Shown here: positions 1 to 63,900 of the stretch, piece after piece | How positions within the stretch are numbered: position 1 is the stretch's first letter | How the letters are laid out: each line of letters begins with the position of its first letter | Source: Octopus vulgaris | Taxonomy: Eukaryota | Assembly (NCBI GenBank): GCA_951406725.2 | Contig: OX597824.1 | Span: 48,794,001-48,858,000 of the forward strand | Direction of reading: 5' to 3' | Length of the DNA stretch: 64,000 nucleotides | Made by a program: the position numbers and the translations under genes | The notes under the pieces: generated by a model | Seen by the model: the letters and a program-made list of their open reading frames with translations, nothing else | Database searches by the model: none | What the model was told of the DNA's origin: nothing

Positions 1-1351
1 AAAAATAATGACAGGATCTAGGATGCATCACCCAAAATCTGACATAGAAAGACTATATATACAACGTATAGAAGGTGGTAGAGGCCTTATACAGCTGAAA
101 AGAATACTATAAAATAACCACTATAGGACTGCAAAAAATCTACTTCATATAAATCTACTGATATAAATAGCGGCAAAACACGAGCAAAACAAAAAACTGT
201 TCTCAGTATTTAAGGAAGCTGACAAATACAAACAAGAAATCATACCACCTAATAAATATGAAGAGGAAGAAGAAGAAGAAGAAGAAGAAGAAGAAGAAGA
301 AGAAGAAGGAGGAGGAGGAGGAGGAGGAGGAGGAGAAGAAGAAGAAGAAGAAGAAGAAGAAGAAGAAGAAGAAGAAGAAGAAGAAGAAGAAGAAGAAGAA
401 GAAGAAGAAGAAGAAGAAGAAGCAACAAAAGCTATAAAACAAATGAAATCCAAACTAAAAATAGAACAGCAACGAACCATGATAAAACGATGGCAAGGAA
501 AGCCCCTTCATGGTAAATACTGGACTAAACTAAACGCAAAAGAAATAGACAAAGAAAAATCCCAGCAATGGTTGAGAAGCTCAGGACTCAAAGCAGAGAC
601 AGAGGGAATTTTAATTGCAGCACAAGACCAAAGCCTCCCCACCAGAAATTACCAAAAATATGTAATGAAAAGAAATATAACAAGTAACTGCAGAATATGT
701 GGAGATGGACAAGAAACAATAAATCATATTATCTCTGGCTTCCCAGTCCTGGCTAAGAAGGAATATATTCACAGACATGACAGAGTTGGAACCTACATAC
801 ATTGGAAGCTATGCCAACATTATGGAATAACAACAGAAAAAAGATGGTATAGGCACACACCAGAAAAGGTCACAGAAAACGAGAAAGCAACCATACTCTG
901 GGATATGCCGATACACACAAATAGAGAAATTAAGGCCAACAGACCAGATATAGTAGTCAGAGATCATGAAGAAAAAAATTGCTTTCTAATTGATGTATCA
1001 ATACCGGCAGATGACAACGTGTCTCTAAAAGAAATGGAGAAACTTCAAAATACAAAGACCTGGAAATAGAGATAACCAGAATGTGGAATCTAAAAACAGA
1101 AACAATTCCTATCATAGTAGGTGCATTAGGCATGATAAAAAAATATCCAGACAAATACATAACAAAAACACCAGGACTTACAAACACATATAACATACAG
1201 AAAATTGCACTACTAGGCACTGCACACATCCTACGCAGAACACTTTCCATACAATAACCATCAGAGCATCACAACAAATCACAGCACATACCTAAGGCAC
1301 ATAGAGCTGCGCTCGGTAGTGAAGTGAAAGCACGCTATAAAAATAAAACTA

Positions 1352-7907: not shown

Positions 7908-10900
7908 CTTTTTTTTTCTTCTTTCAAATTTGCTTCCATTTCTTGCCGAGTGTCTTCCCGACTCCTAGGGCAAAGAAACTCATAGTATACATTAGTAGGT
8001 CATTAAACTAAACTCAATAATTCGTTCATTTTTTAAAGTTAAATTAAAATACATGGGTAGTAATAGTTCTCACATCGACAATGCTCTTCTCAATACGTGT
8101 GATGTACCAGTTAAGACAATCTTTTGCACTTCTTGCGGGGATGGTAAGCCAGGGATCATTCTCATATAATTTTCGGTTCCCTTCTTGATCATTCCTAGTG
8201 CTCCTACGATCACTGGTACTGTAACCGCCTTGAGATACCACATTTTCTCAATTTCAATGAGTAGGTCTTTATATTTTCTGAGCTTGTCAAACTCTTTCGC
8301 TGAGATATTATGGTCACAGGGGATGCTCATGTCGATCAATAAGCAAACTTTATTGTTTTGGTCTTTCACAACAATATCTGGTTTATTGGCCTTGATGGTT
8401 CGGTCTGTATGTACTGGAAAGTCCCACAGAATTGTTACATTTTCTCCTTCAGTTACAGCCTCAGGGTGGTGATTATACCACTTGTCGGCAGTTTTGATAT
8501 TGTAATGCCGACTTATTAGCCAGTTTAGATATTGGCCAACTCTGTCATGTCTTAATTTATACTCCACTGGTGTTAAGACTTTACATCCAGAGATTAGGTG
8601 GTCCACTGTTTCAATCATGTCGTTGCAGAATCGGCATTTTGGGTCTGCTCCATTTTTCATCACATTGGCCTGGTAGTTCCGGGTTAATAGACTTTGATCT
8701 TGAGCAGCCAGGATGGAACCTTTGCTCTCTGCTTTTAGCCCTGAGCTCCGTAGCCACTGATGGGTTTGCTTCTGGTCAACATCAGCTTGTTTGCTGCGGG
8801 CCACATATTTGCCGTGCAGAGGTTTCTCCTCCCACCTATCAGCCAATTGCTCGTGCGCTTTTTTCGTTGCCATTATTTTCACCTTCTTTGCAACAATAGT
8901 TGCCATACTTCCCTCGGGTTGTTCAGTTTGGGTATCCTGCACGAGATCAATAGCAAATTTTTTGCTTTCCTTTATGATAGAATGAAGTTTCTTTCGTCTC
9001 TCGTGATTTTCTACGAGTTTAGCATCCAGTCATTCGTTATTTCAAGATATTTGGCCAGTCCAATTTTGGTTGTTTTGTAAGCTAGTTCAAATTGGATCAG
9101 GTCTCGACCTCCTTGGGCTCTGGGAAGGTAAAGGCGATCAACGTCTGCCTTTGGGTGGTGCATCCTATTACAACTCAGCAGCTTGCGTATTTTCCTATCT
9201 ATATTCTTTACTTTACTCATATTTCAGTTCAACACATTGTAGCTATAAGTAACAACTGGAACTGCTAAGGAATTTATAGCTAACACCTTGTTACGTGCAT
9301 TTAGTTCAGATTTCATGACTGCACGAACTCTCCTATAACATTCCTTCCTGATCTTCTCTTTCATGCTTGCATGCTGAATACCAGAGCCTTCATTTATCCC
9401 TATGCAGAATATTAAAGGTGAAAGTGAGTCTCCTTGAAAAATTCTACAGTTGATGTTTATATTCTCTGAGGCAAGTACTCCATTAGAGTGGTATAATTGG
9501 AGATTCGTATTCCACAACGACATATTGTGCTTCAGGAAGTTTGAAATCACAGGGGAAATTTTGAAGATGTCCAGCGATCTCAAGATCCATGGATGCGGTA
9601 TACTGTTGAAGGGATTTTTATAGTCAATCCATGTGGAGCTGAGATTTCTGCGCTTGTTGTGACAGTTCTCAAGGATCATACGATTAATTAGCAGTTGATC
9701 TTTGCATCCGTTCTTCTCCATGAATGCATATGTTTTCTCCGCCAGGATAGATGTTAGGATTATATACGTGGTGGATAGACAGGTTATAGGCCGATAGTTT
9801 TTTGGAAGGTTGGTTTCGTTATTCTTTGGGAGTAGGTAAGTAATACCACTTGCTAACCATTCAGGTGTTTTCTTTGGGTCTCTCATAATTCCATTGAGAA
9901 GCTGAACTAGCTTACCGTGTGTGCATGGGAGCGATGCGAGCCAGAATTTCGGCACCCTATCTTTACCGGGGGATTTCCAATTATGGAGGCCTTCGTGAGT
10001 GCCTTTCTTAGGTCTGCTATTGTGATGTCTTCCTATGCTTGTTGTAAATTTTGGTAGAATCCTTCTGTTTGTATAATCCAGTCTGCATTTATGTTGTACG
10101 TCTTCTTGTCACTCCAAATCCTTTTCCATGGGAGGGGGGACTTTAACGGTTACTTTCTCCTTCCCTATTTTCTCTGTAGAATTTTTTTCGTATTCTTTGG
10201 GCTTTTGCTTGGACTTTTTGTTTCAGCGTTTCTTTTATTGATATCAGTTCTTCTCTTGGTGAGGATCAAAATTTTCTCTTCATCTTTCTTCCTGTTCTGG
10301 ATCTTACATCATTTCCACATATTAGTTCATTTAATATTGATATTTCCCCTCTCATAAATTCAATCTCTTTTCAATTTTACTTCTCCAGGTTTGATTTCTT
10401 CCCAGGTTTGGTTTTCTTTGTTTTTTTTTTTCGGGGGCATACAGCTGGTTTCAATTGCCCTAGCAGAAGCGTAAATAATTTCATTTAACTCAGTAAAATC
10501 AGGTTTTAATTCTTGTATTATTTCATTTGTTACATAGTTGCCAATTTGGATTTGTTTTTTATTTTGGTTTGTATTTGAGAGTTTATGAAGTGGTTCTCTA
10601 TCATTCATACTTGTATGTCTTACAACTTCAAGCGTATTCAGGATTTTCTGCCTCATTTCTGCCATAGACTTTCTGTGTTCTTCAGCAAATGCGAGGTCTT
10701 CAGTTATTGTTGTTTTATCATTTTCTTGGCTATCTTTAACGGTTCAATAGAATTTCTTGTATCTTCAGGCCTTTGCGTACTTTGGTCAGATGGCAGTCTT
10801 TCAATTAAGCCTCGTGGCGGGCTATACTGTTCATCTGATTCTTCATTTCCTTTATGTCTTATATTTATGTCCTTTTCCGTTGCGTGCTTGAACGCGCTTA

Positions 10901-14061: not shown

Positions 14062-14096
<35 letters not shown>

Positions 14097-14107
14097 TTAT
14101 ATATATT

Positions 14108-14140
<33 letters not shown>

Positions 14141-14160
14141 CTATATATATATATATATAT

Positions 14161-14578
14161 AAGTAGTTGAATGAATTAACTTAGTATGGATAAATCGGTT
14201 AACCGATACCTGGGTAGCAAATTCACGTCAGAAAAACACGGTTGAAGCTACAAGCCAAGGGCAGAGATCACGTGCTTTCGTGTGGAAATTTGTGTGTTTT
14301 TTTAATACAAATAAATGAAAGAATGGAGTTGAACGACGATTTAACAAAATTCCTTTATTCTCGACATATCTTAGATGACTGCCCACACGGAGACCATAGC
14401 GATAATGTCATCTAAGAGTTTTTGTTCATCTTGATGCTGACATAAGTTCCTTGTTTTTCCTGATGAGAAGGCGGCATAATGCACCCCTTATTCCTTCTAA
14501 ATTAGGAATATGCAGCCTTCGAAACATATGTCGAGAATAAAGGAATTTTGTTAAATCGTCGTTCAACTCCATTCTTTC

Positions 14579-14586
<8 letters not shown>
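14161..14586 (+). mobile_element. Small Penelope-LTR-like element with 61-bp perfect inverted repeat and hammerhead, inserted in (TA)n
   Basis: 14309-14369 is the exact reverse complement of 14526-14586. The terminus is shared with the PLE end at 28085 and with 63832-63900. Confidence 0.7.
14447..14545 (+). ncRNA. Type I hammerhead ribozyme
   Basis: CTGATGA at 14460; stem II GAAGGC/GCCTTC; GAAA at 14521; palindromic stem III CATATG; GUC site with predicted cut after 14532; stem I TTCCTTGTTTTTC/GAGAATAAAGGAA. Confidence 0.85.
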
Positions 14587-14634
<48 letters not shown>

Positions 14635-15724: not shown

Positions 15725-15980
15725 GGCTGAACAAGCACCTGGACGAAAACAAACTGTTCCCAGAAGAGCAGAAAGGATGCCGCAAAGGCTCATATGGCTG
15801 TAAAGATCAACTAATGATTAATAAAGCCATAACTGAAGACAGCCACAGAAAGAAGAAAGGCCTCAGTATGGCCTGGATTGACTACAAAAGGCGTTTGATA
15901 GCATCCCCCACACATGGATCCTCGAAACACTAGCCATTAACAAAGTAGCACCAACAATCATAAAATTCATAGAGCACTCT

Positions 15981-16433
15981 ATGAATAAATGGCAAACAGT
16001 CCTACACCTCCAAACAAAAGAGGGACTCATGAAAACCAAAGACATCCCCATTAGAAGAGGAATATTCCAGGGAGACACGCTCTCTCCACTCCTTTTCTGC
16101 TTGGCACTGTCACCTCTATCTGATATGCTAAATAGAACTGGATACGGATATAAATGTTACGGCAAAACGATCAGCTACCTTTTATATATGGATGACCTAA
16201 AACTATACGCTGCAAATGACAAACAGCTGGAAACACTATTAAAGACAGTTCATGGATTTACCAAAGAAATAGATATGAAATTTGGATTAGAAAAATGCGC
16301 CAAAGTAACCATGAAAAGAGGAAAACTAGTTAAGAGTAACAACATCACACTAGATAAAACCAATGAAATAAAAGAATTAGACCAAAGCCAAACTTACAAA
16401 TACTTAGGAATCCATGAACTAGATAAGACATAA
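15981..16433 (+). pseudogene. Reverse transcriptase core fragment
   Basis: RGIFQGDTLSPLLF and LLYMDDLKLYA; premature stop at 16431. Confidence 0.9.
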
Positions 16434-16627
16434 CACACACAAATGAAAGAGAAAATAAAAAAGAATATTATAGACGAGTTAGATCAATACTAAACACAGA
16501 GCTCAATGCTAAAAACAAGATAATAGGTATCAACACTTTAGCTGTCCCAGTTATAAGTTACAGCTACAATATCCTTAACTGGACACGAAATGAACTGACC
16601 AAAATAGATAGGAAAACAAGAAAAATA

Positions 16628-17743
16628 ATGACAGGATCTAGGATGCATCAGCCAAAATCTGACATAGAAAGACTATATATACAACGTATAGAAGGTGGTA
16701 GAGGCCTTATACAGCTGGAAAACTACTATAAAATAACCACCATAGGACTACAAAAATATCTACTTCAGAAGGAAGGAAAACTGATCCAGATAGCGGCAAA
16801 ACACGAGCAAAACAAAAAACTGTTCTCAGTATTTAAGGAAGCTGACAAATACAAACAAGAAATCATACCACCTAATAAACATGAAGAAGAAGAAGAAGAT
16901 GAAGAAACAACAAAAGCTATAAAACAAATGAAATCCAAACTAAAAATAGAACAGCAACGAACCATGATCAAACGATGGCAAGAAAAGCCCCTTCATGGTA
17001 AATACTGGACTAAACTAACCGCAAAAGAAATAGACAAAGAAAAATCCCAGCAATGGTTGAGAAGCTCAGGACTCAAAGCAGAAACAGAAGGATTTTTAAT
17101 TGCAGCACAAGACCAAAGCCTCCCCACCAGAAATTACCAAAAACATGTAATGAAAAGAAACATTACAAGTAACTGCAGAATATGTGGAGATGGACAAGAA
17201 ACAATAAATCATATTATCTCTAGCTGCCCAGTATTGGCTAAGAAGGAATATATTCACAGACATGACAGAGTTGGAACCTACATACATTGGAAGCTATGCC
17301 AACATTATGGAATAACAACAGAAAAAAGATGGTATAGGCACACACCAGAAAAGGTCACAGAAAACGAGAAAGCAACCATACTCTGGGATATGCCGATACA
17401 CACAGATAGAGAAATTAAGGCCAACAGACTAGATATAGTTGTCAGAGATCATGAAGAAAAAAAATGCTTTCTAATTGATGTATCAATACCGGCAGATGAC
17501 AACGTGTCTCTAAAAGAAATGGAGAAACTCTCAAAATACAAAGACCTGGAAATAGAGGTAACTAGAATGTGGAATCTGAAAACAGAAACAATTCCTATCA
17601 TAGTAGGTGCATTAGGCATGATAAAAAAATATTCAGACAAATACATAACAAAAACACCAGGACTTACAAACACATATAACATACAGAAAATTGCACTACT
17701 AGGCACTGCACACATCCTACGCAGAACACTTTCCATACAATAA
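16628..17743 (+). pseudogene. Linker, CCHC zinc knuckle and RLE endonuclease segment (371 aa)
   Basis: CRICGDGQETINHIISSC, RHD, RLDIVV (PD in sister copies), LIDVSIP, KLSKY. Confidence 0.9.
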
Positions 17744-21506: not shown

Positions 21507-22736
21507 TTGGGTCATCCCATAAATAATGCGGTCTTTTCAATTATATTTCAAACTAAAAGTCTGAAGGGGACGGGATAAACTACCTGCATCTACTTGCTAT
21601 AAAATCAGGCAGTAATTTTACCTTGTCCTTATTTTTAGTACAAGTTTTGAAGAGTGCTGTTCGATCTTAACAGTTATATTCTCAAAGCTATAATGGAACT
21701 GACAAAGGAGCATATTAGGCATATTTTGCTCTATGACTTCAATAAAGGTAATAACGCAACAGAAAGTGCAAGGGATATTAATGTAGTATATGGGGATCGA
21801 ACAATAAGCGTAAGCCAGCGTCAACAGTGGTTCCAGAAATTCCGAGCCAGAAACTACAGCCTAGAAGACGTGCCTCGTCCTGGAAGATCTGTAGAGCTCG
21901 ACGAGGACGACGTGCAAACCCTAGTGAAACAAAATCCCATCATAACAGTTGAGGAACTAGAAGAGAAGCTTAGATTTGGTCATTCAACACCTGCGTGCCA
22001 TCAGAAAAGTCAGCAAATTGGGTTAATGGATCCTTCAAACTTTCCGAATCTAATTGCCTACAGAGAGTGAATGTGTGTTCTTCTTTGCTGCCACGTCTCA
22101 CGATTGAACCTTTTTCGGACCGAATAGTGACCGGTGATGAGAAATGGGCTCTCTATAAAAATGTCAAGCGTCGAAGACAGTGGGTAGTGGAAGAAAAAAC
22201 ACTGGCACCCCAATCTAAAGAAGGTCTTCACTCACGTAGGGTTTGTTATCTGTTTTAAACCCAAACCAAACGATAACAAAGATCTACTGCAAGCAGCTTG
22301 AACGACTTAAGTTAGCGCTAAAAGTAAAACGACCGTCTTTGGTTTCAAGACGAAAGGTGTTCTTCCTTCAAAATAATGCTCGGCCACATACAACGAGGAT
22401 GACATTCCAAAGGCTGGAACAGTTTGAATGGGAAACGATACTCCACCTTCCATATTCGGCAGACATTGCCCTATCTGATTATCATTTATTCTGCAGTCTT
22501 CAAAATTATTTGGGCGGAAAAAATATGAATTCTGTAGGCTAGGTCATATCAGTACTGGAGAAGCATTTTTCATCACGGACAAGTGAATTTTGGAAGAAGG
22601 GCCTTGCAAGATAGATGGAAGAACATTGCAGAAAATGAGGGAGAGTATATTTTAGATTAAAAAAGAACTGTGTTTATCTTAATTTTGAAAAATAAATAAA
22701 TATTTAAAAAAACGCATTATTTATAGGTTGACCCAA
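21507..22736 (+). mobile_element. Full-length decayed mariner transposon (~1.23 kb)
   Basis: TIRs TTGGGTCATCCCATAAATAATGCG / CGCATTATTTATAGGTTGACCCAA; TA target duplication at both ends. Confidence 0.95.
21693..22660 (+). pseudogene. Mariner DD34D transposase pseudogene
   Basis: HTH region (WFQKFR..PRPGRS), IVTGDEKW, LQNNARPH, HLPYSADIALSDYHLF across three frames. Confidence 0.93.
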
Positions 22737-28084: not shown

Positions 28085-28089
<5 letters not shown>

Positions 28090-29215
28090 GGAGTTGAACG
28101 CAGATGTTATTCAAATTCTTTTACTTCCGGCATATGTTTCGAAGACAACATTGGTATTATTCCAGAAGGAATAAAATGGTGTAAAACAATGCACTCTTCT
28201 CATCAGGGTAAGAAAGAAACCAAACACATCAATAAGGCATTTTAACAGAATGTGATGACTGCGTATATGATGATGGGAACGCTGTCAAGTTTATTTTTTT
28301 AAACCGTTAGTAGATATAACGTCAAAGGTAGTTTATAGAAGGAGAAGGAGGGGAAAGAAAGAAATTAGCAGAAAACTAATAGTGGGGAATATAGAGAGAT
28401 AGGTGAATTAGAATAAAGCTTAAAGGAATGGAAGATATAGTTAGTAGAAGTGCAATGTAAGAAGACAGTCAAAGGTCGAATTTTAAAGAATGGTAGAAAT
28501 CACTTATAGGAACTAAAGGTATGTTTCTTCCAATGTTTGCAACGACAAACGCGTTCTATAAACGTATTTATTGAGAATAGAATAAACGTATTTATTGAGA
28601 ATAGGATAAAAAACATTTCACTATTGCAAAGGGAACAAAAAGATTTACCTTTATCATAAGGTAAAGAAATAGAGAGAATATTCCATTCCAAATAAAATTG
28701 TTTATTATGATCTTTTAGATACCAGATTAATTTACTAAGCACAGTATTGTTACGTTTATTGATATGCTTATATGTAGAGTAATGATTGGATAATCTTTTG
28801 GACAACTGAGATGAAGAACTACCAATATAAAAAAGACGTCAGAACCGGAAGTAATTTTACATTGATAAATAGAGTTTCTAGTCTTAGAATTATTGCTAAG
28901 AAAACAAATGCGATTGGAGTTGAGTTCAGAAACAATAACCCTGCTGTTAATATTATTTAAAGAATGGTTAGTGTTAACAAAATTAATGTTAGTATTTTTA
29001 TTAAGTGGATTTGTATTTAACAACTTATTATTATGCGAAGAGATGATTTGTGAAAGATTTTTGTGTTAGAAAACCCTATCCTAATTCGGTGTGAGTTAAT
29101 AATCGAATAGTATCTTGAATTTCTTGGGAAATTCTTTTCTATAGCTTCACGAAACAGTGCTTCTCTGGTAACTGCGTATTTTTTTCCTTGTTATTTATAA
29201 ACACTGGAAAAATAC
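28085..29215 (-). mobile_element. Penelope-like element 3' part (GIY-YIG endonuclease relic plus terminal repeat)
   Basis: SIYQCKI, KRLSNHYST..NTVLSKLIWYLK..LEWNIL..CSLCNSE..CRCKH. Downstream hammerhead; (TA)n on both sides. Confidence 0.85.
28110..28220 (-). ncRNA. Hammerhead ribozyme motif (cleavage triplet GCC, probably inactive)
   Basis: Minus strand: CTGATGA GAAGA..TCTTC GAAA CATATG CC GG; same architecture as 14447-14545. Confidence 0.75.
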
Positions 29216-29226
29216 ACATACTTTTA

Positions 29227-47429: not shown

Positions 47430-47960
47430 AAAGCTGAGCAATATATCAATATATCCAACCAATCTAGAGAAGAGGTTAGCCTAATAATTCCCTATGTCAC
47501 GGAACGACACAAATTAGACGCATTTAGCAAAAATAATGTCATAGAAGAGTTGAACCTCAAAATAACCTCCCTAATCTAATAATGTTCCCTAGACATAGCT
47601 CTAAAATAACCTCTAAAAACATATAAACCTTGAAGAAAACCGAATGAAGTGCTCCTATATATAAACAGGTATTCCAACCACCTACCTTCAACGATAACGG
47701 ACTGGATCAACATAAGCCCCGGACAATCTCCACAATATCATCCAGCAAAATAATAAATCCATCAGTCAATAGCATTCAATAATGAATTCCTAAAAATAGC
47801 AAGTTCAAAGACAAATTACAATACATTCCCAAAGTCCCGAAAACGAACTATAAATCAAAGAAAACTAGAAAGAGGAACGGTAACTTTAGCCAAATATAAA
47901 ATATTCCTAAAACGAACCGTCATACATTTCCTAATCTACCAAACATATCAGAAACTATTC
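47430..47960 (+). mobile_element. Highly decayed Penelope-like RT fragment
   Basis: Manual translation near 47625 gives KP*RKPNEVLLYINRYSNHLPS, resembling the PLE motif YRKPN..YI...SNHPP. Confidence 0.55.
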
Positions 47961-48949
47961 AATACATACGACGCCAAGTACCCACCCTCGGAGCTTGCTG
48001 TCTGGCCAATCTATGAAGGGACTTGCAGGCGAGGATGTGAGTGTATACTAGATGTATAAGTACGTAAGTGTAGGTGTCTGATGCCGATACCTGTGTATCT
48101 GTTATGCATATGTGTGGAAGGTGCGCGTCTGTGTTAGCTGGCGTGTGGATGAGAGATGATGTCATCAGCTCGTTAGTGCGTATGTGCGTCTTTTCTAGGT
48201 TGTGTGTACGTATAGATGCAAAGGAGTTTCAGCCATGTGTGTGTACTCGCGTGCGCGAGTATGTGGTTGTTTGTATCAACTGTGTATATCAGCTACGTAT
48301 GTATTAGTTTTAAGGGTGTGCATGCATGTGTGTGTGTGTGGGTATGTATGTGCGCGCGAACGAATACGTGTGTGTTAGTGCTTGTTGTGTACGCATGTAT
48401 GTGTACGTGTTCAGAATGTATGTATGAATGTGTGTTTGTATGGACGCTTGGTGAATGTGAGCAAGTACATTCCTGTATTTATGTGTACGTATGAATGCGT
48501 GAGTGTTTGTCTGAAGAACATGTATGCGTGTGTGCGTGTGTTTTCATCTGGTGTGCGCGTGTGCATACATATGTATTTATGTTTTGGGTGAGCATGATAG
48601 ATGTACGCCAGTGTTGTTGCAACCGCATTGTTGAGGGTGGAGGTGGGAGAATTTGGTGTTGGATTGAGACTTGGTGGTGTTAAAGGGGAAAGAGGTTCGG
48701 TTGTGGTTAAGTGGGGAAGAATCAGAAGAAAAGCAAGCGTATATGTATGTGTGTAGATGTATACCTACAATGATGTATGCGTTTGTGCACACATATATCT
48801 TGGAGACAGATGTGGTGGGGTTACAGGCAATGCACAAGGCTGGAAAGTCAATCTGTGGTCTACGTATGCATCGCTGGTTAGGAACTTTGTCCGTGGTTGT
48901 TGGGTAGCCAGTACTGAAGTGCAGTTAATGTTAAGATGGTATATCTGAG

Positions 48950-50520
48950 TTGTCGGCGGCCAGTGGTTTGAAGGCTACCAGGAAGAGGTACCTCTGATAG
49001 CAACAATAAGATAGTTCATATTTCTTGTTGACAGACACTGCAGGATGGTAAAGAATATGCAGTCTTTCGCAGAGGCAGAACGGGCAATTACATGTGCCGG
49101 GCGAGTAAGGTTTGGACTCATTCGATTTTGGGGGGTTCATTCCGGAGGCCGCGAAGTCTCCAGAAGAAACGAGACAACGAGGTGAAATTCTCTCTATCTT
49201 TGCATCTAAAAGAAAGCATATGTTGTGTGTACCTCCCTTGAGGCCATTGGCCGCCATGCTCATGTCGTGCATTGTGATGCTATCGGGTGATGTGAGTGTG
49301 ATTATGTAGACTACAGTTCTTGAGTGGCAGAGTCCTCCTAGATGGCAGCTGGTAGGGTTTGGGTAGTTACAGGTTAGGTTGGAGGTTGTGTGGATGCGTG
49401 TTTGCACCTGTAGTAGCATGTAAGGATAGAAGCAATGCTGTCTAAACAGGAATAGCTCACCTTGACTTCATGTGGTTTGAAAAGCTTATAGTACACATGG
49501 CCGCATGGAAATTTTTTCTTAATCAACGACAAGAAGCTCCTAGCTATGTTGGTGGAAACTTCTAGGTTAAATTGAAAGTTGAACCAGATTATCTTTCTCT
49601 TCCTTTCTTCTTCCGGTTTGGGGGTAGCGGTTTTATAATGGAATGGAAGGTTTATGATACCTGTGGAGTGTCTCCTTTTCCCATTATAAGAGTCATCCAT
49701 ATATGCTGGCTTCTCAGAAAATCCACTCCACACCAATGTATCACTGTAGTCCTATTGAAGATTTCCCTATCGGTTGAATGCTTAGATATCTGCTAACTGT
49801 TTACTGTGGGTGGGTGATTCGAGCTTCTGAAAATGCACAGTTTCTTCGCTGGGCTTCCTGTAAAAGTATTACTTGCTCGCTTTCAGGTCTTAGTTCAAGT
49901 CTAGGAAGTCATCAGTGGTCAAGTTGGTGGTAACTATTATAGGCAGGCCAAATTCTTTGAATATCTTTATCAGGTCCTTCCCAAACTTGTCCATGGCGTG
50001 GCCGTTCATGTGAATTGAGATTGCCAGACTGCCGTCCCTGTAAAGAGCTGACCTGTGTGGGTGAGAGCGTTTCTTGGGGGTATCCAAGATAAAAAAGCCG
50101 ACGGGGTCGGCAATCTCAGCCCCTTCGAAGCTCCCCATAGAAACGTTGAAGAGATAATCGCCTTCTTTTCTCACCCAGAAGGAGTCGTCATGAACTACGA
50201 TTGATTCTCTGGAGATGTCACGATTGATTCTCTGGTGAAGATTCTGACATCTAGATCACTTATACAACTGAATTGCCGAGCGAAATCCAGGGCTTTCAGG
50301 AGAAGAGATTTCTATAACGCAGAGTAGAAATTTATGATGTAAAACTGTGAGAATCAGCAGGCTGATTTATTCTCGATACCACAGAAGCTAACAATCATAG
50401 CTGCACTGGAATCCCATTGAATCAACCCTGCGGCCCTTCTAATATCTAAGTTGATGCTATTGAAAATGCACGTATTGCTAATGGTTACTTCGTTTTAGAT
50501 AATGTTGATTAGCCTGCATT
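48950..50520 (-). mobile_element. Decayed Penelope-like element (RT plus GIY-YIG)
   Basis: FNVSMGSFEGAEI..LYRD..DFLDLN; RKRKIIWFN..KVSYSC; CHLGGLC..VVY; CPFCLCERLHIL..NKKYEL. Confidence 0.85.
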
Positions 50521-50967
50521 TGGGGTTGGCAAGGAAACTGGGTTTGGGATACTTAACTGAAATGTGGGATGTCACGTGGAAAGGTGGTGTACATGATCCT
50601 CTATGTTTCTGTATTTATATTATTGTATGTGGAGGTGCTGGTTTTCTTCTATGTCTTGGTGATCGTGTTTGTGGACAAACGAAAGGAAAAGTAGTCAACA
50701 CATTTAGTGGGAGATACATATATTATTATTTAAAACAGTTTGATTTGGTTCCATGTGACTTAAAGTTTAGTAGGCTTCTTAGTGAAACCTAGCTCATTGG
50801 GCTCATTTAACCGAATGGAGACGATGCAGGAATTCCAAGATGACTACCAGAAATTGGATTGCCATTGGTCAAGGCAGGTCACATGGTGTTGTTAGAAGTG
50901 GGATCAATATTCCAGCGACACCAGATGCCTTAAAAGGGAGAATTCCTTGAAGATGCATGGGCTAATA

Positions 50968-51177: not shown

Positions 51178-51909
51178 ATTCAGTAGTTTTATTTTTATAG
51201 CGTGCTTTCACTTTACTATCGAGCGCAGCTCTGTGTGCCTTGGGTATGTGCTGTGATTTGTTGTGATGCTCTGATGGTTATTGTATGGAAAGTGTTCTGC
51301 GTAGGATGTGTACAGTGCCTAGTAGTGCAATTTTCTGTATGTTATATGTGTTTGTAAGTCCTGGTGTTTTTGTTATGTATTTGTCTGAATATTTTTTTAT
51401 CATGCCTAATGCACCTACTATGATAGGAATTGTTTCTGTTTTCAGATTCCACATTCTAGTTACCTCTATTTCCAGGTCTTTGTATTTTGAGAGTTTCTCC
51501 ATTTCTTTTAGAGACACGTTGTCATCAGCCGGTATTGATACATCAATTAGAAAGCATTTTTTTCTTCATGGTCTCTGACAACTATATCTGGTCTGTTGGC
51601 CTTAATTTCTCTATCTGTGTGTATCGGCATATCCCAGAGTATGGTTGCTTTCTCGTTTTCTGTGACCTTTTCTGGTGTGTGCCTATACCATCTTTTTTCT
51701 GTTGTTATTCCATAATGTTGGCATAGCTTCCAATGTATGTAGGTTCCAACTCTGTCATGTCTGTGAATGTATTCCTTCTTAGCCAGGACTGGGCAGCTAG
51801 AGATAATATGATTTCTTGTTTCTTGTCCATCTACACATATTCTGCAGTTACTTGTAATATTTCTTTTCATTACATGTTTTTGGTAATTTCTGGTGGGGAG
51901 GCTTTGGTC
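51178..51909 (-). mobile_element. Young 5'-truncated R4/Dong-like family A
   Basis: ORFs 51547-51870 and 51278-51517 near-identical to ~17110-17743; TAA flanks. Confidence 0.93.
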
Positions 51910-51992
<83 letters not shown>

Positions 51993-51993
<1 letters not shown>

Positions 51994-53672
51994 TATGTTT
52001 GACTTTTGCTTTATGTCTGTACAAGTTGGCTCCAAGTCTCACCCAGAGACCTCAAGAGACAACAGGTTGGAAGTTCACGTTGTTGTTATGCCTAGTGTGC
52101 CATATATTTGGGGGGGGGTTGTACTAAGTGAATGTCTAATACATAAATTTTAAAAAAAAGAAAAAAAAGTTTGTTTTAAACCTTGGGATTACATAGAGAG
52201 TATTTTGCGTAGGATATGAGCAGTTCCCATGAGCACTATCTTTTGAATTTCTGCCATTTTGGGGTTTCCTGTTATCTGAGTTAGGTAGCAATCAGCTCCT
52301 TTCGCTATCATTCCCAGGGCACCTATGACAACAGGTATTGTTTTAGTCTTCAGCTTTCACATTTTGCTGATTTCTATTTCAAGATCTTTATATTTGCTCA
52401 GTTTTTGGTAGGTCTTGACAGATACGTTTATATCGATTGGGACAGTCATATCAATGAGGAGGCATGTTCTCTGTCTGAACACTTTCAATATGATGTCTGG
52501 CCTATTTGCATCTATCTTTCTGTCAGTTTGAATGGTGAAGTTCCAGAGGAGTGAGATGTGGTTATTTTCAAGCACTGGAGGTGGATTGTGTTCCCACCAG
52601 TTTTTTTCATGGGGCAAATCCAGGTTTTTGCAAATTACCCAGTGAATATATTGTGCAGCTCTATCATGCCTGTTGAGGTACTCTGTAGACGTTTGAAGAC
52701 TGCATTTGGAGACAACATGATCAATGGTTTCATTTTGTTGTCAGCATACACGACATGTTGGGCTACTGCCGTTCTTTAATATGTTGGCCTGGTAGTTTCT
52801 TGTTGGTAGGCATTGATCTTGAGCTGCTATGATAAACCCTTCTGTTTCAGATTTTAAGCCAGAGGCCATTAGCCATTGATGGGTCAGGGCTTTGTCAATA
52901 TCTGCATTATTTGCTCTCTTTGGGTATTTGCCACAGAGAGGTTTTTCTTGCCATTTATTATTCAGAATATCTAAGGCCGCAGTTTTGGCACGGGTTTTCA
53001 TGCGCCTAGCTTTTTCTGTGATTGTTTCTTGTATGTCCATCTCTAATTCCGAAATTTGTTGTATTCGGAATTCACTTAGATATTCCTTTGTCTGTTTTGT
53101 TACTGAGTATGATGCTTTTTTGTTTTCATGTTTTGAGACAAGTTTTAGCATCCAGTCCTCAGAGTTTTTCAGGTAGGTGTCTAGGCCAATTGTAGCAATC
53201 TTCATTGTTATTGCCAGTTGCAAAAGACCACAGCCTCCCTCTTTTCTTGGTAGATAAAGTCGTTCTATATCTGCCTTAGGGTGGTGCATTTTATGCATTG
53301 TCAACAGTTTTCTTATTTTTCTGTCGAGCTGACATATTTCAGTAATTGACCAGTTAACGATATTGAACTGTAAGTCATGACTGGTATGGCTAATGCATTG
53401 ATCGCTTCGATCCTGTTTCTTGCATTCAGCTCTGTCTTGAGTATTGCTCTCACTCTTCGATAGCATTCTCTCCTGATCCTTTCCTTCATCTCTGAATACC
53501 TTATTCCGTTCCCTTCAATTACCCCTAGGTACTTGTAGCTCTCCGCTGGGTCTAGTTCTTTTATGACATTCTGCTGGTCAAGGTTAACGTTAGATGTTTC
53601 TGTCATTTTTCCTTTGATAAAGGTAGCTTTTGCACATTTATCGAGGCCGAATTGCATTCTGATGTCGTCATT
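51993..53672 (-). mobile_element. R4/Dong-like family C, 5'-truncated
   Basis: FGLDKCAK..YKYLG; HHPKADIERLYLPR; FIIAAQDQ; CRVC; RPDII..LIDMTVP. Distinct 3' UTR ending in (TAA)n. Confidence 0.92.
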
Positions 53673-53686
53673 GAATTATTATTACT

Positions 53687-63831: not shown

Positions 63832-63834
<3 letters not shown>

Positions 63835-63897
63835 TAGGTGAATGAATTATCCTAGTATTGATAATTCGGTTAATCGACTCCATTCTTTTATTCATTT

Positions 63898-63900
<3 letters not shown>
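63832..63900 (+). mobile_element. 69-bp internally deleted relative of the 14161-14586 element
   Basis: AAGTAGGTGAATGAATTATCCTAGTATTGATAATTCGGTTAATCGA resembles 14161-14206, joined to CTCCATTCTTT (cf. 14567-14577); (TA)n on both sides. Confidence 0.65.

What the first reader, a model, noticed from the sequence alone, without database searches (positions are those of the whole stretch)
14161..14586. Compact (TA)n-inserted element with an intact hammerhead ribozyme and perfect 61-bp inverted repeat
Seen: complete type I core (CUGAUGA, GAAA, GUC), long stem II, palindromic CAUAUG stem III and extended stem I. The inverted copy breaks exactly inside that palindrome, and an extra hairpin CTTAGATGAC/GTCATCTAAG lies between the arms. 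Established: Penelope LTRs and retrozymes carry hammerheads with short palindromic stem III that act as dimers. Inference: a young non-autonomous retrozyme-like unit whose antisense arm could sequester the cleavage site.
Basis: partly seen in the sequence, partly recalled or inferred. Interest (0 to 1): 0.72.

Follow-up and report, generated by a model that had tools for sequence, protein, structure and literature searches.

The report
Stump of a Penelope-like jumping gene
This 426-base piece is the clipped end of a common Penelope-like jumping gene: two head-to-head fragments of the same end sequence, one with an intact-looking hammerhead ribozyme motif, likely copied from RNA into a TA repeat, which is a known architecture and not a new self-regulating RNA unit.

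Summary
In detail: a perfect 61-bp inverted repeat (14309-14369 / 14526-14586) and a type I hammerhead with full core (predicted cut after 14532). The reading as a compact retrozyme-like unit is not supported. A sister hammerhead at 28206, 71% alike, lies 294 nt behind a Penelope-type GIY-YIG endonuclease remnant. Contigs of one public run give 12 other head-to-head joins of the same two arms, each at a different place; a 69-bp version sits at 63832. So the geometry is made anew per insertion: the known 'pLTR plus inverted 5'-truncated pLTR plus tail' of Penelope-like elements. The left arm is really 14161-14406, an inverted copy that lost 109 nt (most of the ribozyme); the 'extra hairpin' is the 10-bp leftover overlap. 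The antisense arm is predicted to block the ribozyme fold (26 kcal/mol) in a read-through RNA, but as an accident of this copy. Unusual: the tail is 148 nt against the 30-40 nt in the papers read, and 6 joins cannot be fold-back copies, favouring priming from both target strands. Cleavage, transcription and this exact junction in reads were not shown. New member of a known kind; interest 0.3.

The parts
14077..14160 (.). left (TA)n flank, imperfect; target microsatellite, no target-site duplication discernible
14161..14308 (-). 148-nt 'tail': continuation of the element beyond the short end, present only on the inverted arm
   Evidence: contiguous with 14309-14369 in laid contigs (2 of 16 listed pieces bridge 14308/14309 with 31 or more letters on each side); same tip follows a TA run at 63832
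14309..14369 (-). perfect inverted copy of 14526-14586
14370..14406 (-). inverted piece of the upstream pLTR; read on the minus strand it is followed by 14369, so 109 nt (equivalent of 14417-14525) are missing from the inverted arm
   Evidence: 3 listed opposite-strand joints 14371/14372 to 14416-14420; 4 of 16 listed pieces start exactly at 14407; a loose end before 14407 matches the reverse complement of 14380-14393 in 13 of 14 letters
14407..14586 (+). direct arm: 5'-truncated pLTR (3' end of the element) ending at the short end
   Evidence: homologous to the 3' end of the sister copy at 28087-28220
14444..14548 (+). type I hammerhead motif; core 14460-66 and 14521-24, stem III 14524-31, predicted cut after C14532
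   Evidence: variants
14587..14631 (.). right (TA)n flank
28086..29225 (-). sister insertion between TA runs: broken 3' end of a Penelope-like ORF with GIY-YIG remnant (28500-28838), 294-nt spacer, hammerhead (core starts 28206; U16.1 changed to C), same short end
63832..63900 (.). 69-bp mini-insertion between TA runs: tail tip (40 of 46 letters like 14161-14206) joined to the short end (21 of 24 like 14563-14586)

Best explanation
It is a young, heavily 5'-truncated insertion of a Penelope-like retroelement (C-terminal GIY-YIG type), likely made when both strands of a (TA)n target were nicked and each primed reverse transcription of the element's RNA, one from the short end and one 148 nt further out, and the two short cDNAs were joined head to head. 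Shown: the two-arm anatomy, the family relationship to a GIY-YIG-linked sister copy, variable joins across copies, two recurrent ends, a conserved hammerhead. Inferred: target nicking by the element's endonuclease, two priming events, and joining by 1-nt microhomology at 14406/14407. The inverted arm then lacks 109 nt, either because reverse transcriptase skipped the folded ribozyme or because a roughly 180-bp palindrome later lost part of one arm (about even odds). The hammerhead is the element's ordinary pLTR ribozyme, predicted to work poorly alone (2-bp stem III, dimer-type); in a read-through RNA of this locus it would be folded shut by the left arm, which is incidental.
For: Sister hammerhead 71% alike over 134 columns, same short end, 294 nt behind an ORF remnant with a GIY-YIG match (E 5e-4, 20.6 bits, under the cutoff of 22.6). 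That remnant hits 1748 proteins at E up to 0.001; long hits carry RT motifs, a cysteine linker, GIY-YIG and Cys/His motifs by eye. Run X3: 2422 contigs laid, 29 of 29 bins covered, 12 distinct left-to-right joins at low, similar depth (11 in the joint table, one contig each, and 1 in the between-letters table; depth 28-116, median 51). In 5 of these 12 and in the 63832 copy the left arm stops inside the tail, so neither arm can be a fold-back copy of the other. Papers: inverted 5'-truncated copy, tail at one end, (TA)n targets (PMC8557442); head-to-head inversions with palindromes at the junction (PMC3846280); both strands cut and extended, two RT start sites define the tail (PMC11167929). Hammerhead conservation: none of 38 variant rows touches 14460-66 or 14521-32; G14471A with C14516T and T14455C with A14537G are pair-restoring; the sister has 2 double changes.
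Against: No ORF was linked to this exact subfamily; the link goes through a 71% sister. No full-length copy or RT was seen attached. The tail is four times the 30-40 nt stated in the papers read. Raw-read runs with the same species label as the best holder did not behave like a high-copy family: X23 0 reads, X24 109 reads only on 14161-14250, so no read-based copy number. No listed contig spans this locus's own joins (16 pieces shown, 2468 not shown; 15 joints shown, 3 not). Covariation on two sequences is not significant (140 of 500 shuffles as high) and 5 of 22 pairs are broken in the sister. G14470A and T14546A have no listed partner change. Later central deletions of long palindromes could mimic two priming events.
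Confidence: 0.85

Rival explanations
1. Same element, but the inversion is made by fold-back self-priming: one cDNA starts at the tail tip, snaps back on itself leaving a 27-nt loop (14380-14406) and copies itself up to the short end; asymmetries come from later deletions.
For: This locus alone fits if the 109-nt gap arose afterwards; self-priming is the published reading of junction palindromes (PMC3846280 Discussion); long palindromes are deletion-prone (general knowledge).
Against: 5 of 12 joins in run X3 and the 63832 copy have arms with no complementary overlap and would each need a large central deletion.
Confidence: 0.25
2. A non-autonomous retrozyme-like unit that amplifies as such, with the antisense arm as a switch on self-cleavage.
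For: Intact core; strong predicted sequestration; no ORF seen for this subfamily; animal retrozymes are proposed to derive from pLTRs (bioRxiv 10.64898/2026.07.22.740005).
Against: Joins differ in every other copy seen; single hammerhead, no tandem units; the tandem arrays in run X24 consist of the tail tip and lack the hammerhead; no shared break in the palindrome (0 of 19).
Confidence: 0.07
3. Assembly or library fold-back artefact at a TA repeat.
For: This locus's own joins were not seen in the listed pieces; TA runs are hard to assemble.
Against: The arms are not a simple mirror image (148-nt tail, 27-nt extra, 109-nt gap); analogous joins occur in independent short-read contigs and at 63832.
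Confidence: 0.03
4. A miniature inverted-repeat DNA transposon that happens to contain a hammerhead.
For: Short, non-coding, TA target, inverted repeat.
Against: The repeat is not terminal on the left (148 nt inside); internal joins vary; the sequence is the 3' end of a GIY-YIG-coding element.
Confidence: 0.02

Closest known systems
Truncated insertions of endonuclease-positive Penelope-like elements with inverted pLTR and tail (PMC8557442 fig. 2 legend; PMC3846280), Neptune/Nematis type by the cysteine linker of the sister's relatives
   Same: 5' truncation, head-to-head inverted copy, small palindrome at the junction, tail at one end only, hammerhead in the pLTR, (TA)n target without visible duplication
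   Different: tail of 148 nt instead of 30-40 nt; inverted arm lacks the ribozyme through a 109-nt gap; no ORF left; clade not fixed by a tree
Poseidon element of Anolis carolinensis, in vitro (PMC11167929)
   Same: two fixed ends downstream of the hammerhead, AT-rich target, products on both strands
   Different: its RT starts are adjacent (ORF +111 to +118); here the two ends lie 54 and 202 nt after the predicted cut; no ATG-led ORF in the 148-nt tail
Minimal and palindromic-helix-III hammerheads of metazoan PLEs (PMC4209133)
   Same: type I, large helix II, G10.1-C11.1, small palindromic helix III suited to dimers
   Different: no bulged base after A9; helix II carries a roughly 42-nt structured loop; helix I extends to 14 of 16 pairs
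Non-LTR retrozymes (PMC7229834; bioRxiv 10.64898/2026.07.22.740005)
   Same: short, non-coding, type I hammerhead, pLTR-related
   Different: those are head-to-tail tandem repeats with a hammerhead per unit and give circular RNAs; here one hammerhead in a head-to-head, copy-specific arrangement

Membership tests
Type I hammerhead ribozyme | conserved core CUGAnGA, GAAA, NUH with stems I-III | tested here: met
   (Hammerhead_1, E 0.0014, under gathering score; missed on the 3-kb scan)
Type I hammerhead ribozyme | core conservation and covariation across copies | tested here: inconclusive
   0 of 38 variant rows in the core, two pair-restoring variant pairs, mostly unphased; 2 double changes in the sister but 140 of 500 shuffles as high and U16.1 lost there
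Type I hammerhead ribozyme | self-cleavage | not testable with these tools
   needs in vitro transcription
Penelope-like element (EN+) | hammerhead-bearing pLTR downstream of a GIY-YIG ORF | tested here: met
   met for the 71% sister at 28086-29225; not seen for this exact subfamily
Penelope-like element (EN+) | RT and GIY-YIG in one ORF | tested here: inconclusive
   no RT in this or the sister copy; long relatives of the sister's endonuclease carry RT motifs by eye but gave 0 Pfam hits in 7 of 7 proteins
Penelope-like element (EN+) | variable 5' truncation with inverted copy joined head to head | tested here: met
   12 distinct joins in run X3, plus this locus and 63832
Penelope-like element (EN+) | tail at one end, 30-40 nt | tested here: inconclusive
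   one-ended extension present in 2 of 2 two-armed copies in the window, but 148 nt long
Neptune/Nematis clades | cysteine linker between RT and EN; placement in an RT tree | tested here: inconclusive
   linker seen in long relatives, decayed in the sister; no tree built
Non-LTR retrozyme | two or more head-to-tail units each with a hammerhead | tested here: not met
   one hammerhead at the locus; the only go-back joint listed is of the tail tip, in run X24
Non-LTR retrozyme | fixed unit that amplifies as such | tested here: not met
   12 of 12 other listed joins differ from this one and from each other
Non-LTR retrozyme | expressed as monomeric circular RNA | not testable with these tools
   no run on record as RNA among the holders

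The most novel reading that the evidence does not exclude
This family is a Penelope-like lineage with two reverse-transcription start sites 148 nt apart, one used on each strand of the (TA)n target, so that every two-armed insertion has one long-tailed and one short-ended arm; its many tiny joins are a natural record of two-ended priming, and a subset of arms stop at or just after the hammerhead cut (4 of 12 right arms start in 14533-14549; one appears to start at 14533 itself), which would be genomic evidence that self-cleaved RNA serves as template.
Probability: 0.2. Interest if true: 0.6.

Novelty: new member of a known kind. Interest (0 to 1): 0.3.

Why it matters
As a locus it is one dead stump among at least hundreds. 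Its value is as a handle on two open questions named in the papers read: how Penelope-like elements form inverted structures and tails, and what their hammerhead does. A family with a long tail and many unique micro-joins lets both be tested by counting arm ends in one good assembly.

Tried and rejected
No whole genome was held, so no direct copy count. Rfam on 3 kb: no hammerhead. Metagenome scans: tight pattern 0 matches; loose pattern 118 loci held (scan stopped at its limit), none with stem II, the right cleavage triplet and stem I together, none similar to the element or to 6 PLE proteins: chance matches. Word-based protein searches with the sister's GIY-YIG remnant: 0 of 183 and 0 of 22 candidates; the HMMER search found relatives. 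Only 1 of 8 proteins looked up carried a name (an octopod hypothetical protein, 39% identical): too weak to name the host. No RNA holder listed; run X5 is only guessed to be RNA (21 contigs laid), so expression is untested. Runs X23 and X24 gave no usable copy number. The tail does not fold better than shuffles (z -1.18 and -0.23). Splicing as cause of the 109-nt gap rejected: the ends are not GT..AG in either direction or register (read). No similarity found between the tail or upstream pieces and the sister copy beyond 9-letter matches. Clustering of arm ends after the cut: p 0.03 for right arms, 0.10 for left arms, window chosen after seeing the data: a hint only. Earlier findings by sequence and by place: none.

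Full report
Observation. The sequence at 14161-14586 lies between two TA runs. The longest perfect inverted repeat is 61 bp, 14309-14369 with 14526-14586. On the plus strand there is a type I hammerhead motif: core at 14460-14466, stem II of 6 pairs (14467-72 with 14515-20) closing a long structured loop, GAAA at 14521-24, a 2-bp stem III with a 4-nt loop inside an 8-nt palindrome (14524-31), GTC at 14530-32, and a stem I with 14 of 16 positions paired. The motif scan found 1 hit in the window and none in 200 locally shuffled windows. Rfam missed it on 3 kb and matched Hammerhead_1 on 151 nt at E 0.0014, below the gathering score.

Context. The window is a microsatellite-rich animal sequence full of retroelement remnants; a cephalopod is my guess from recalled repeat types, not a result. 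No genome was held. Two relatives lie in the window. At 28086-29225 (minus strand), between TA runs, a second hammerhead 71% alike over 134 columns ends at nearly the same short end and sits 294 nt behind a broken ORF end. That ORF end matches Pfam GIY-YIG weakly (E 5e-4, under cutoff) and 1748 library proteins at E up to 0.001; the long hits show RT motifs, a cysteine linker, GIY-YIG and Cys/His motifs by eye, though Pfam named none of 7. This is the layout of a C-terminal-endonuclease Penelope-like element (PLE) of Neptune/Nematis type as described in PMC8557442 (passages). At 63832-63900 a 69-bp insert between TA runs joins the finding's left tip (40 of 46 letters) to its right end (21 of 24).

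Other copies. Twenty public runs from 9 studies and four organism labels hold part of the stretch; none is on record as RNA. I laid 4 of the 24 listed runs. Run X3 (DNA by guess, contigs) gave 2422 contigs over 29 of 29 bins. Summed depth is no copy number, but dividing by the median join depth of 51 and by the largest possible 31-fold overlap leaves a floor of several hundred copies in that organism (rough). Twelve distinct joins link a left arm (ending at 14196 to 14357) to a right arm (starting at 14417 to 14560), at depth 28-116; three further joints were not shown. None repeats this locus's joins. Against an easy picture: raw-read runs X23 and X24 gave 0 and 109 reads, the latter only on the left tip and in tandem arrays of it; they carry the label of the best holder, so either they are a different species under one label or reads were filtered. 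They are no test of copy number.

True anatomy. Four of 16 listed pieces start exactly at 14407, a loose end there matches the reverse complement of 14380-14393 in 13 of 14 letters, and three joints switch strand between 14371/14372 and 14416-14420. So in ordinary copies the sequence now inverted at 14370-14406 lies directly upstream of the direct arm. Read on the minus strand, 14406 to 14370 runs straight into the equivalent of 14526: the inverted arm is 14161-14406 and lacks 109 nt, the equivalent of 14417-14525, which is the ribozyme up to stem III. The real head-to-head join is 14406/14407, and the 'extra hairpin' is the 10 bp that both arms still share. Each join has a 1-nt microhomology (read). 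The 148 nt at 14161-14308 continue the element beyond the short end: 2 of 16 listed pieces bridge 14308/14309 with 31 or more letters on each side, and the same tip follows a TA run at 63832 and in the X24 arrays.

Mechanism. PLE insertions are 5'-truncated, often carry an inverted truncated copy at the 5' end and a 30-40 bp tail at one end (PMC8557442; PMC8969392, passages); head-to-head inversions with junction palindromes are described in PMC3846280 (passages and Discussion). In vitro, a lizard PLE cuts and extends both strands of an AT-rich target and starts reverse transcription at two internal sites that define the tail; its hammerhead cut is not needed for insertion (PMC11167929, parts 1-2 of 4). 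I infer that this stump arose by priming on both strands, one cDNA from the short end (54 nt after the predicted cut) and one from the long end (202 nt after it). In 5 of the 12 joins and at 63832 the left arm stops inside the tail, so neither arm can be a fold-back copy of the other; this favours two priming events over the self-priming proposed in PMC3846280, unless large central deletions followed. For the 109-nt gap I cannot choose between an RT skip over the folded ribozyme and a later deletion in a long palindrome. Arms are identical over 71 bp (upper bound about 4%) and 4 positions differ from nearly all X3 contigs, so the insertion is young.

The ribozyme. None of 38 variant rows touches the core or stem III; G14471A goes with C14516T (both in one X5 contig, judged by equal depth) and T14455C with A14537G; G14535A turns a wobble into a standard pair; G14470A and T14546A have no listed partner. 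The sister shows 2 double changes, 3 one-sided changes and 5 broken pairs of 22, including U16.1, and two sequences give no significance. The 2-bp palindromic stem III fits the dimer-type PLE hammerheads, which cleave weakly in vitro (PMC4209133, parts 1-2 of 4). But 0 of 19 arm ends inside the pLTR fall in the palindrome (left arms running past 14369 are invisible in this layout), so the geometry is not a conserved switch.

Retrozyme test. Non-LTR retrozymes are tandem repeats with a hammerhead per unit, expressed as circles (PMC7229834, passages; bioRxiv 10.64898/2026.07.22.740005, part 1 of 5). Here there is one hammerhead and no fixed unit: not met. That this subfamily has no coding parent is not excluded, since no ORF was linked to it directly.

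What may be new. The tail is 148 nt; the three papers that give a length say 30-40 or 31 bp. My searches listed nothing on a longer tail or on hammerheads in octopus PLEs (PMC13282606, passages, has 0 uses of 'ribozyme'), but the key 2005-2006 papers and Repbase are outside the library and I saw no supplements. Second, 4 of 12 right arms start in 14533-14549 (expected 1.3, p 0.03, post hoc) and 4 of 7 left arms end in the equivalent stretch (p 0.10); in one join the 8 inserted letters equal 14533-14540 with the common G14535A variant, as if the arm began at the cut. RT stalling in stem I explains this equally well. It is a hint. Earlier agent notes on fish and shark genomes report similar PLE stumps; they are leads, not support.

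Verdict. Real, young, and a new member of a known kind: a truncated PLE insertion with inverted pLTR. Interest 0.3; the long tail and the catalogue of joins could make PLE priming and the role of the hammerhead testable (probability 0.2, interest 0.6 if true).

Noticed in passing
run X24 on window 14161-14215: Tandem arrays made of the element's tail tip separated by short TA runs (unit about 67 nt, 86 reads across the go-back joint; a second unit type of similar length), 90-95% like the window: a satellite apparently built from the PLE's outermost end, with no hammerhead.
   Followed up: no
window 48950-50570 (minus strand): A second, more distant PLE remnant with RT core, thumb and endonuclease pieces (about 32% identical to library proteins); no hammerhead found by the loose scan.
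   Followed up: partly
window 47466-47978 (plus strand): A third decayed PLE RT fragment (28% identity, E 6e-08).
   Followed up: no
window 28550-28605 (minus strand): A tandem duplication of about 27 nt inside the sister's endonuclease remnant (the translation repeats a 9-residue stretch).
   Followed up: no
window 167-1069, 8070-10108, 15882-17743, 51267-53675: Several copies of a non-LTR element ORF end with RT, zinc-finger and restriction-like endonuclease motifs (recognised from memory), often abutting (AAT)n runs; 16427-17743 is an open frame of 438 aa.
   Followed up: no
window 14194-14207: A 14-bp perfect palindrome 33 nt inside the tail tip; nearly all laid contigs differ at 14194 and the 63832 copy breaks near it, so its role is unclear.
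   Followed up: no
window 21651-22542: Mariner-like transposase remnant (recognised from memory).
   Followed up: no
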